Of a DNA stretch of 1,248 nucleotides, positions 1-1,248 are shown piece after piece. This DNA comes from Escherichia coli. GTDB lineage: Bacteria > Pseudomonadota > Gammaproteobacteria > Enterobacterales > Enterobacteriaceae. Within the stretch, counting starts at the first letter, position 1, and every line of letters begins with the position of its first letter. Under the pieces are notes generated by a model. The model did no database searches, was not told the DNA's origin, and was given only the letters and a program-made list of their open reading frames with translations. The stretch lies in NCBI RefSeq assembly GCF_003334335.1, contig NZ_QOWQ01000115.1; one strand, written 5' to 3'. The translations under genes were made by a program, and so were the position numbers.

Positions 1-40
1 CTGCGATCAGCAGGATCAGCGCGCCGACTATCTGTAACAT
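1..40 (-). CDS. yeeR: Start of a downstream co-directional gene with a hydrophobic N-terminus (putative inner-membrane protein); 3'-partial, only 13 codons in window
   Basis: ATG at 38-40 (minus) preceded by GGAG with a 5-nt spacer. Translation MLQIVGALILLIA is strongly hydrophobic (transmembrane-like or signal-like). It lies 120 bp downstream of the flu stop on the same strand; in E. coli K-12 the gene after flu in CP4-44 is yeeR, a predicted membrane protein. The symbol is assigned by synteny and memory, not by a verified sequence match. Confidence 0.4.
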   Translation of the reverse strand, partial: MLQIVGALILLIA

Positions 41-45
41 AGTCA

Positions 46-49
46 CTCC
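46..49 (-). promoter_or_regulatory. Shine-Dalgarno sequence (GGAG) for the downstream gene
   Basis: Minus-strand sequence reads ...cacGGAGtgactATG; GGAG sits 5 nt upstream of the ATG at 40. Confidence 0.4.
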
Positions 50-115
50 GTGATGAATATCATGTTATTGTTAATGCCAGCGAATGTGGCGTTGAATATC
101 CGTTGCGCCGGTCCG

Positions 116-140
116 GGTCCCGATCATGATGACCGGGACC
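116..140. other. GC-rich inverted repeat / stem-loop in the flu 3' intergenic region (perfect 7-bp stem ggtcccg/cgggacc, 11-nt loop containing the palindrome ATCATGAT)
   Basis: Positions 116-122 ggtcccg are the exact reverse complement of 134-140 cgggacc; the loop 123-133 is atcatgatgac. It begins 21 nt past the flu stop codon. No U/T tract follows on either strand, so it is not a canonical intrinsic terminator; it may be a 3' stabilising hairpin or a partial terminator. Confidence 0.35.
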
Positions 141-160
141 ACAGAGAGGCGATGGTTCTG

Positions 161-1248
161 TCAGAAGGTCACATTCAGCGTGGCCTGACCGTTATAGCCT
201 TCAGCGCTGCTGCCGCTGACGCTGTGGACATAACCTGCCTGAACGCCCAGGGTGATATTTTCCCGGACACGGGCTTCCAGTCCGGCCTGCAGGTCCAGTG
301 ACGTACCATTCTGTGACGGTGAGAACGTCATGTTACTGCCGGCTGCGGCTGTACCCATGCTCATGTCCCCCCGGGAGCTGAAGGTGCGGATAACAGAAGG
401 CTGTACCCACCAGTTCACCGGCAGTTCACGCACACTGTGTTTGGCACTGCCGCGCAGGGTGTCACGGGATGAGGTGCCTTTACCAAAGTTCATATCGTGG
501 TGGCTGCCCAGACGGAAGCCGGCACGCACATGTTGTGCACTGCCATGCCCGAACTTCACATAACTGGCGTTATCCTGGCCGTCATCCAGGGAGAGTCCCT
601 GCCAGGTGTACTGCAGTTGCGGCTCCAGCATCAGATTGTCAGTGATACTGAAGGGCAGACCGGTTTCCAGCGAACCCAGCCAGCCCCAGCCCCGGACGCG
701 GAAGTCGTTATTGTCCGATGAGGCTTTCATGCTGTGGCGGGTTCCCTGGGCCACAATGTCAGCCCACAGGCCGGAGGCGTTGTGTATCAGATTCAGGTAT
801 CCGCCCAGGCTGCCGGCATCATCCCGGACCGTGCCGGCACGGGAGCCGTCATCATCCTTAACATCAACGGAAGAATGGCCAGCAGCACCATATACCCCCG
901 CGGTCACAGACATACCGGCAACCTCTGTTCTGAGCAGGTCACCCTCCAGACGGACGAAGCCATAGCTGCCGCTGCTTTCCGGCGTGGCTCCACGGGCAAT
1001 ACCGCCGTTGTTATCGTGACCGAGATGACCGCCCTGAATGCTGAGACGGACGCTGTTATTTTCACCGCTTACACCGGTCTGATGGCTGCGGGAGCCTGCC
1101 AGAATCCGGTCATAGTCCATTGCCTGTGTCAGCATGGAGGCGTATAGGGGGACTTCAGCACGATAACGTTCTTCACTGCGCAGATACCAGCTCTCATCAC
1201 TGTCCCGGTTGAGGGAGTAGTTAAAGGCACCGGCCTGCAGCTTATTCC
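161..1248 (-). CDS. flu: Antigen 43-type (AIDA-I family, type Va) self-associating autotransporter, C-terminal beta-domain/translocator; 5'-partial, gene continues beyond the right window edge
   Basis: Minus-strand frame is open from 1246 to the TGA stop at 161-163 (checked codon by codon from 1136 to 1246: no stops). The Met at 1135 has no purine-rich RBS upstream (cccctatacgcctcc-ATG), so it is internal. The protein ends ...SGSSAEGYNGQATLNVTF with a terminal Phe, the classic outer-membrane beta-barrel C-terminal signature. Amphipathic beta-strand-like segments are present (YGFVRLEG, GWGWLGSLETGLPFSI, HVRAGFRLGS, WWVQPSVIRTFS, ITLGVQAGYVHSV). The sequence matches my recollection of E. coli Ag43 (flu); allele or paralog cannot be assigned without alignment. 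Confidence 0.8.
   Translation of the reverse strand, partial: NKLQAGAFNYSLNRDSDESWYLRSEERYRAEVPLYASMLTQAMDYDRILAGSRSHQTGVSGENNSVRLSIQGGHLGHDNNGGIARGATPESSGSYGFVRLEGDLLRTEVAGMSVTAGVYGAAGHSSVDVKDDDGSRAGTVRDDAGSLGGYLNLIHNASGLWADIVAQGTRHSMKASSDNNDFRVRGWGWLGSLETGLPFSITDNLMLEPQLQYTWQGLSLDDGQDNASYVKFGHGSAQHVRAGFRLGSHHDMNFGKGTSSRDTLRGSAKHSVRELPVNWWVQPSVIRTFSSRGDMSMGTAAAGSNMTFSPSQNGTSLDLQAGLEARVRENITLGVQAGYVHSVSGSSAEGYNGQATLNVTF

What the first reader, a model, noticed from the sequence alone, without database searches (positions are those of the whole stretch)
1..1248. Elevated GC content consistent with an acquired island context
Hand counts of two 60-nt lines gave about 63% GC inside the gene (781-840) and about 53% in the spacer region (61-120), against roughly 51% for the E. 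coli genome; I did not count the whole window. flu is carried on the CP4-44 prophage-like element in K-12 and on pathogenicity islands in other strains, so this fits horizontal acquisition.
Basis: partly seen in the sequence, partly recalled or inferred. Interest (0 to 1): 0.2.

Follow-up and report, generated by a model that had tools for sequence, protein, structure and literature searches.

The report
GC-rich end of Ag43 adhesin gene
The window is the well-known 3' end of the E. coli antigen 43 (flu/agn43) adhesin gene on a mobile island module; its GC content really is raised, but mostly because of the protein it encodes, and the islands that carry it are not GC-rich, so the finding is ordinary.

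Summary
Positions 781-840 are 63.3% GC, 61-120 are 53.3%, and the whole window is 58.2%, against 50.6% for a sampled E. coli host genome.

The elevation is modest. It is z=1.7 and the top 2% of host 1248-nt windows, a level that core operons (pao, bet, dpp, thi, glc) also reach.

The window holds three things on the minus strand: the last 362 codons of agn43/flu (autotransporter beta-domain), a 120-nt spacer, and the first 40 nt of a yeeR-like gene.

The island context is confirmed independently. The neighbours are YeeP GTPase, YeeS, YeeT, CbeA and CbtA, and tRNA-Leu (leuX) plus an integrase bound the island. There is a second copy at pheV in the same genome. The sequence is present in 76% of E. 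coli genomes at 1-7 copies.

GC is not what shows this. The carrying islands are at host-average GC (51.3% and 51.9% here; 46-50% in published tables). Half or more of the gene's GC excess comes from its Gly/Ser/Ala-rich protein (GC2 at the 97-99th percentile). Codon adaptation, codon bias and synonymous GC3 excess are host-typical.

Only the dinucleotide signature is clearly foreign.

Verdict: already known, low interest.

The parts
161..1248 (-). 3' part of agn43/flu: the last 362 codons plus the TGA stop at 161-163. The CDS runs off the right edge of the window.
   Evidence: ORF and translation ending ...GQATLNVTF*. 99.5% identical to RefSeq 'autotransporter adhesin Ag43'. 93.5% identical to K-12 flu over the CDS part. 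GC 58.9%; GC1/2/3 = .62/.49/.65.
236..991 (-). Autotransporter beta-barrel (translocator) domain.
   Evidence: Pfam PF03797 Autotransporter, E=3.2e-21, residues 86-337 of the translation of window:164-1246:-. PF13505 OMP_b-brl, E=2.3e-5.
41..160 (.). 120-nt intergenic spacer between agn43 and the next gene, GC 52.5%. It includes the Shine-Dalgarno GGAG of the next gene (plus-strand CTCC at 46-49).
   Evidence: Annotation of the best hits: agn43 ends at locus 20161 and the next CDS starts at 20040. K-12 has the same 120-nt gap between flu and yeeR. Only 2 differences from K-12 in 1-160.
116..140 (-). 11-bp hairpin with a 3-nt loop in the spacer, as read on the agn43 mRNA strand. The extended structure spans 106-151. 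It has no U-tract.
   Evidence: RNA fold -38.3 kcal/mol, z=-2.35. Not called a terminator. No Rfam match. The K-12 variant at 123 turns a G.U pair into G-C.
1..40 (-). First 13 codons (MLQIVGALILLIA...) of the yeeR-like 838-aa gene downstream of agn43.
   Evidence: Annotated CDS at L001 17524-20040 on the same strand, start ATG at window 40-38. The K-12 equivalent is yeeR.
1142..1171 (.). Short mosaic patch. It contains all 7 differences from the closest genome copy and changes ...SENAYR... to ...SEERYR....
   Evidence: Alignment and difference list. The same patch variant occurs in other agn43 alleles: 368 records are >=99% identical over 1110-1210.

Best explanation
The window is the 3' third of the antigen 43 (agn43/flu) type Va autotransporter gene, its downstream spacer, and the start of the yeeR-like gene. 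These belong to a conserved module of about 12 kb (YeeP GTPase, Ag43, YeeR-like, IrmA, DUF905, DUF932, antirestriction, YeeS, YeeT, CbeA, CbtA, YeeW, DUF957). The module travels within tRNA-linked integrative islands of E. coli.

The raised GC (58%) is real, but it is a property of the gene and not of the island.
- About 3.6-4 of the 6.5-7 excess points follow from the amino-acid sequence. The protein is a Gly/Ser/Ala/Arg-rich beta-structure, so GC2 is about 0.49-0.50.
- The remaining 2.5-3.6 points are a mild synonymous GC3 excess that lies within the normal range of host genes.

Horizontal acquisition is well supported, but by other evidence: gene neighbourhood, the tRNA plus integrase boundary, multiple insertion sites, variable copy number, and an atypical dinucleotide signature. 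GC percentage is not part of that support.

Shown: the anatomy, context, distribution and composition statistics. Inferred: that the dinucleotide signature is a residue of a donor lineage or of the element's own history.
For: - Identity and domain.
- GC decomposition: the window CDS is .589 against a host CDS mean of .517. GC expected from the protein with host codon usage is .553 (window) and .556-.557 (full gene). GC2 is at the 97-99th percentile, CAI at the 57-73rd, and Karlin B at the 38-75th. GC3 observed minus expected is +.056, the 81st percentile.
- Not island-wide: the leuX island is .513, CP4-44 is .519, the module is .543, the yeeR-like gene is .520, and the flanking 15 kb is .495. 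Published Ag43-bearing PAIs are 46-50%.
- Core operons reach the same GC.
- Island evidence. Present in 4145 of 5426 genomes at 1-7 copies. Rare plasmid copies occur in E. coli, Klebsiella and Salmonella.
- Dinucleotide signature: delta* is 161 for agn43 and 116 for the module, against host means of 54 and 37. The maximum among GC-matched host windows is 73. The protein re-encoded with host codons gives 90+-11, and a shuffle of its own synonymous codons gives 121+-7.
Against: - The background is a 400-kb sample of one related genome, not the true (unknown) host of the window.
- Host gene statistics came from a simple ORF caller (ATG ORFs of >=150 or >=250 aa), not from curated CDS.
- The window's own GC3 (.651) is at the 94th percentile, so a small donor-derived synonymous component cannot be excluded.
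- Several other module genes (YeeP .588, YeeS .581, DUF932 .567) are also GC-rich, with GC3 excess at the 90-96th percentile. This is compatible with a somewhat GC-richer ancestral host for part of the module.
Confidence: 0.85

Rival explanations
1. One reading: the high GC is a compositional footprint of the foreign island in which flu sits, i.e. donor-genome GC that has not yet drifted to the host value.
For: - GC is in the top 2% of host windows.
- The gene is on acquired islands.
- The 12-kb module is mildly GC-enriched at 54.3%.
- The dinucleotide signature is foreign.
Against: - The islands as wholes are at host-average or lower GC.
- The directly adjacent yeeR-like gene is 52.0% and the upstream intergenic region is 44.5%.
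- Half or more of the excess is dictated by the protein sequence.
- Synonymous GC3 excess, CAI and codon bias are host-typical.
- Core operons reach the same GC.
Confidence: 0.12
2. GC-biased gene conversion: frequent recombination among the multiple Ag43 paralogues and alleles has pushed synonymous sites toward G/C.
For: - Copies are multi-copy: median 2, up to 7 per genome.
- The structure is clearly mosaic. There is a 7-difference patch at 1142-1171 that is shared with other alleles. Block identity between copies ranges from 84% to 100%.
Against: - The synonymous GC3 excess is only +.056, the 81st percentile of host genes.
- The one patch examined shows no clear AT-to-GC direction (4 versus 3 G/C bases; sequence).
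- No polarised substitution analysis was done.
Confidence: 0.03

Closest known systems
E. coli K-12 flu (b2000, antigen 43) in cryptic prophage CP4-44
   Same: - Same gene family and same local order: yeeP, flu, a 120-nt spacer, yeeR, then yeeS-yeeT-cbeA-cbtA-yeeW.
- 94.2% identity over the window, with only 2 differences in the first 160 nt.
- Same gene GC of 58.2-58.3%.
   Different: - The window's allele is closer (99.5%) to copies located between the fec operon and nanC/fim in a leuX island.
- The downstream gene is a full 838-aa ORF there, whereas K-12 has the 510-aa yeeR.
- The module there also carries IrmA, DUF905, DUF932 and antirestriction genes that are absent from K-12 CP4-44.
Published Ag43-bearing islands at leuX/fecI (PAI-S88-leuX 'Fec, Ag43', 39 kb, 50% GC; PAI-UMN026-fecI 'Ag43', 26 kb, 50% GC) and at pheV, serX and thrW (PMC7545054)
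   Same: - Same chromosomal neighbourhood as the best hits (fec operon, Ag43 module, nanC/fim).
- The second GE3 copy matches the pheV type (PMC11537424).
   Different: The true location of the window's own copy is unknown, because the flanks within the window are common to all copies. The GE3 leuX island is larger (91 kb) and also carries a dpd DNA-modification cluster.
Cah / Ag43-family autotransporters on plasmids and in EHEC
   Same: About 95% nucleotide identity over the beta-domain part. Annotated as 'calcium-binding autotransporter Cah' or 'Ag43/Cah family' on Klebsiella, Salmonella and E. coli plasmids.
   Different: Those matches mostly stop at the stop codon (query 161-1241), so they lack the spacer and yeeR-like flank seen here. 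They are also less similar than the chromosomal agn43 copies.

Membership tests
Type Va (classical) autotransporter, Ag43/AIDA-I group | C-terminal 12-stranded beta-barrel translocator domain (Pfam PF03797) | tested here: met
   PF03797, E=3.2e-21, covering model positions 16-254 of 255.
Type Va (classical) autotransporter, Ag43/AIDA-I group | C-terminal aromatic residue (outer-membrane targeting signature) | tested here: met
   The translation ends ...ATLNVTF*.
Type Va (classical) autotransporter, Ag43/AIDA-I group | N-terminal signal peptide and beta-helical passenger (alpha43) domain | not testable with these tools
   These lie outside the window. The 99.5%-identical genomic copies are full 1039-aa genes annotated as Ag43, but the window's own 5' part was not seen.
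Antigen 43 (flu/agn43) specifically | Near-identity to the characterised K-12 flu and RefSeq agn43 | tested here: met
   99.5% to RefSeq agn43 copies; 94.2% to K-12 flu over the window.
Antigen 43 (flu/agn43) specifically | Dam/OxyR phase-variation switch (three GATC sites) upstream of the gene | not testable with these tools
   The regulatory region lies about 2 kb beyond the right edge of the window and was not examined.
Genomic / pathogenicity island (Hacker-type criteria) | Insertion next to a tRNA gene, with an adjacent integrase | tested here: met
   In the closest genome, tRNA-Leu is at L005 17078-17162 and a tyrosine integrase at 17349-18593. The second copy abuts yghD, which neighbours pheV in K-12. 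This is shown for the relatives, not for the window's own unknown source.
Genomic / pathogenicity island (Hacker-type criteria) | Mobility genes and mosaic structure (IS elements, transposases) | tested here: met
   IS1, IS3, IS66, IS30, IS21 and IS110 fragments occur throughout.
Genomic / pathogenicity island (Hacker-type criteria) | Variable presence among strains | tested here: met
   Present in 4145 of 5426 complete genomes at 1-7 copies per genome, in at least three chromosomal sites.
Genomic / pathogenicity island (Hacker-type criteria) | [quoted passage not shown] | tested here: not met
   The whole leuX island is 51.3% and CP4-44 is 51.9%, against 50.6% for the host sample. Only agn43 and a few module genes are raised. 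Published Ag43 PAIs are 46-50%.
Genomic / pathogenicity island (Hacker-type criteria) | Atypical codon usage or oligonucleotide signature | tested here: inconclusive
   Codon usage is typical: CAI at the 57-73rd percentile and Karlin B at the 38-75th. The dinucleotide signature is strongly atypical: delta* is 161 (gene) and 116 (module), against a host p95 of 98 and 62.
CP4-44 / CP4-6 / CP4-57-type module (YeeP ... CbtA/CbeA) | Conserved neighbours: YeeP GTPase upstream; YeeR, YeeS (JAB/RadC), YeeT (DUF987), CbeA/YeeU and CbtA/YeeV downstream | tested here: met
   All are present in the same order in both best-hit loci, in the second GE3 copy and in K-12. Within the window itself, only the first 40 nt of the YeeR-like gene are visible.
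Bona fide prophage | Similarity to sequenced phage genomes | tested here: not met
   No megablast match among 50,697 phage records. 'Cryptic prophage' is K-12's historical annotation.

The most novel reading that the evidence does not exclude
The YeeP-Ag43 module carries a distinctive dinucleotide signature that is poor in CpG and GpC and rich in CpA/TpG. Neither its protein sequences nor its codon usage explain this signature (delta* is 161, against 121 after a synonymous shuffle and 54 for typical host DNA). This could mark an unidentified non-E. coli donor, or a special mutational or selective regime acting on this phase-variable, recombining element. Separately, the conserved 11-bp hairpin in the agn43/yeeR spacer could be an uncharacterised RNA processing, stability or attenuation element that couples the two genes.
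Probability: 0.12. Interest if true: 0.25.

Novelty: already known. Interest (0 to 1): 0.06.

Why it matters
It matters little for biology. Ag43, its carriage on CP4-44 and on tRNA-linked islands, and its multi-copy mosaic alleles are textbook knowledge.

The useful point is methodological. A locally raised GC value in E. coli is weak evidence of horizontal transfer. In this case it comes mainly from the amino-acid composition of a beta-rich surface protein. The islands that carry the gene are at or below host GC, and core operons reach the same values. Gene context, distribution among strains and the dinucleotide signature are the informative tests.

Tried and rejected
- Intrinsic terminator after agn43: none found. 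The spacer hairpin lacks a U-tract.
- Known RNA family in the window: no Rfam match at E<=1.
- tRNA within +-20 kb of the best-hit copy: none. tRNA-Leu and the integrase turned up only about 80 kb away, at the island boundary.
- Phage origin: no match in the phage collection.
- Spread of the exact spacer hairpin beyond E. coli: a scan of 100,044 species-representative genomes found one contig, labelled as an Oxalobacter MAG. It is 95-97% identical to E. coli DNA and is probably mis-binned. The scan is therefore uninformative about a donor.
- Codon adaptation as a sign of foreignness: rejected, because the values are host-typical.
- Exact source of the window: no complete E. coli genome holds it at 100%. 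The best is 99.5%, and the differences are confined to one recombination patch.
- Two scripts failed on file paths. They were rerun.
- A large protein-database search for distant Ag43 homologues and their hosts was deliberately not run. The cost is not justified for an already-known gene.

Full report
**What is in the window.** The 1248 bases hold three features, all on the minus strand.
- The last 362 codons of a long ORF that runs off the right edge. It ends ...GQATLNVTF with a TGA stop at 161-163.
- A 120-nt non-coding spacer at 41-160.
- The first 40 nt of the next gene. Its ATG is at 40-38, preceded by a GGAG Shine-Dalgarno sequence.

The translated ORF matches the Pfam autotransporter beta-domain (PF03797, E=3e-21). 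A megablast against 5,426 complete E. coli genomes finds the window in 4,145 of them. Most carry it at 90-99% identity, with 1 to 7 copies per genome (median 2), and nearly all copies are chromosomal. The best matches (99.5%) are annotated 'agn43: autotransporter adhesin Ag43'. Identity to K-12 flu is 94.2% over the window.

**The observation.** The hand counts are exact: 63.3% GC for 781-840 and 53.3% for 61-120. The whole window is 58.2% and the coding part is 58.9%.

For a background I fetched eight 50-kb pieces at evenly spaced positions of the closest host genome, E. coli GE3. That sample has 50.6% GC. Its 1248-nt windows have a mean of 50.65% and an sd of 4.4%. The window is at z=1.7, and 2.0% of host windows are as GC-rich or richer. 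Those windows include ordinary core operons: paoABCD, betAB, gspE-K, glcDEF, dppBCDF, thiEFGH and zraR-purD.

Taken alone, the two 60-nt lines say little. 6.1% of host 60-nt windows reach 63.3%, and 43.6% reach 53.3%. The elevation is nevertheless consistent across the window, with 19 of 20 lines above the host mean.

**The island context.** This was tested independently of composition, and it holds.
- In both best-hit genomes examined (GE3 and O145:H28 RM12761), agn43 lies in the same conserved module: GTPase (YeeP type), agn43, an 838-aa yeeR-like gene, IrmA, DUF905, DUF932, antirestriction, JAB/YeeS, DUF987/YeeT, YeeU/CbeA antitoxin, CbtA toxin, DUF5983/YeeW and DUF957. IS66, IS3 and IS1 remnants surround it. 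The module lies between the fec operon (or efa1) and nanC-fimB.
- Following the GE3 island outward, tRNA-Leu lies immediately next to a tyrosine integrase about 80 kb away. This bounds a composite island of about 91 kb.
- GE3 has a second copy of the whole module that abuts yghD. In K-12, yghD is the direct neighbour of tRNA-Phe pheV, so this copy is at the pheV site.
- K-12 carries flu with yeeP, yeeR, yeeS, yeeT, cbeA and cbtA in the annotated cryptic prophage CP4-44.
- A review table lists Ag43 on islands at thrW, serX, pheV, leuX and fecI in various ExPEC strains (PMC7545054). A 2024 study places flu in GI-pheV (PMC11537424).
- Rare plasmid copies exist, including on a Klebsiella and a Salmonella plasmid at about 95% identity.
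- No sequenced phage carries the sequence.

**Is the GC a property of the island?** It is not.

| Region | GC |
|---|---|
| Whole leuX island of GE3 | 51.3% |
| K-12 CP4-44 | 51.9% |
| K-12 CP4-44 without flu and yeeR | 49.6% |
| 11.8-kb conserved module | 54.3% |
| agn43 | 58.2% |
| YeeP | 58.8% |
| YeeS | 58.1% |
| Adjacent yeeR-like gene | 52.0% |
| Intergenic region upstream of agn43 | 44.5% |
| 15 kb on the other side of the module | 49.5% |

The published Ag43-bearing islands are 46-50% GC, which is at or below the host value. High GC is therefore a property of this gene and a few of its neighbours. It contrasts with the island context rather than reflecting it.

**Where the excess GC comes from.** I compared the gene with 268 long ORFs from the host sample.
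- GC2 is .49-.50, at the 97-99th percentile. This reflects a protein with 13% Gly, 12% Ser and 8% Ala.
- GC3 is .65 in the window (94th percentile) and .63 for the full gene (87th percentile).
- If the same protein is encoded with host-average synonymous codon usage, the expected GC is already 55.3% for the window and 55.6-55.7% for the full gene. The host CDS mean is 51.7%.
- Half or more of the excess therefore follows from the amino-acid sequence.
- The remaining synonymous excess (GC3 observed minus expected, +.056 for the gene) is at the 81st percentile of host genes.

Codon adaptation was measured against a reference of tuf, rplKAJL, rpoBC, hupA, nusG, ompX and cspE. CAI is .35-.38, at the 57-73rd percentile. 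Karlin's codon-bias distance is .28-.37, at the 38-75th percentile.

**A compositional signal that does mark the element as foreign.** Karlin's dinucleotide signature distance, scaled by 1000, separates the element from host DNA.

| Sequence | delta* | Host windows of the same size |
|---|---|---|
| Window | 167-169 | mean 72, 95th percentile 122-127 |
| agn43 | 160-161 | mean 54, 95th percentile 98-104 |
| 11.8-kb module | 116 | mean 37, 95th percentile 62 |

- Only windows inside rpoB, a gene with extreme expression-linked bias, reach the same values. No GC-matched host window does; the maximum is 73 at 3.1 kb.
- The deviation is a deficit of CpG (.83 against 1.15) and GpC (.96 against 1.28), with an excess of CpA/TpG (1.37 against 1.11) and ApC/GpT.
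- Re-encoding the protein with host codon usage gives a delta* of 90+-11.
- Shuffling the gene's own synonymous codons gives 121+-7, against the real value of 161.
- Protein sequence, codon choice and codon context therefore all contribute, and the full signature is not explained by the protein.

This supports horizontal origin, but it is a different measurement from GC percentage.

**Other anatomy.**
- All 7 differences from the closest genome lie in 1142-1171. That variant occurs in other agn43 alleles.
- Identity between agn43 copies varies block-wise from 84% to 100%. This is the known mosaic, recombining nature of Ag43 alleles.
- The spacer contains an 11-bp hairpin at 116-140, with z=-2.35 for the spacer fold. 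It has no U-tract and no Rfam match.
- The spacer and the start of the next gene are much better conserved against K-12 (2 differences in 160 nt) than the coding part (71 in 1088).

**Verdict.**
The gene is on acquired islands, and every predicted neighbour is found. However, raised GC is not a footprint of the island context. It is mostly due to protein composition plus ordinary genomic heterogeneity, and codon usage is host-like.
- Everything here is already known biology, so interest is low.

Noticed in passing
window 116-140 (extended 106-151), minus strand: There is an 11-bp hairpin with a 3-nt loop in the agn43/yeeR-like spacer. It has no U-tract, is not called a terminator, and has no Rfam match. 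K-12's single difference at 123 converts a G.U pair to G-C. The spacer is far better conserved than the flanking CDS (2 differences in 160 nt against 71 in 1088, versus K-12).
   Followed up: partly
window 1142-1171: All 7 differences from the closest genomic copy cluster in 30 nt, changing SENAYR to SEERYR. The same variant exists in other agn43 alleles, so this is a short recombination (gene-conversion) tract.
   Followed up: yes
window 161-1248; L001 12758-24524: agn43 and its 12-kb module have a dinucleotide signature that is poor in CpG and GpC and rich in CpA/TpG (delta* 161 and 116). Within the 400-kb host sample only rpoB matches it. Protein sequence and codon usage do not fully explain it.
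   Followed up: partly
L015 (JAHAYL010000019.1, 4050 nt): A contig binned as 'MAG: Oxalobacter sp.' in the species-representative genome set is 95-97% identical to E. coli yeeR-like/agn43 DNA. It is most likely a mis-binned E. coli contig.
   Followed up: partly
L005 20059-40268: Immediately after its integrase, the GE3 leuX island carries a complete dpdA-dpdK cluster (7-deazaguanine DNA modification and restriction) together with queD.
   Followed up: no
L001 17524-20040; L003 19780-21312: In the best hits the gene downstream of agn43 is an 838-aa 'hypothetical protein'. K-12's yeeR at the same position is 510 aa and runs straight into yeeS. K-12 CP4-44 therefore seems to have lost the 3' part of this gene together with the IrmA, DUF905, DUF932 and antirestriction genes.
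   Followed up: no
PLSDB hits H43, H45-H50: Several records in the plasmid collection are 0.8-4.9 Mb long and evidently represent chromosomes or chromosome fragments. Plasmid counts for this gene are therefore overestimates.
   Followed up: no
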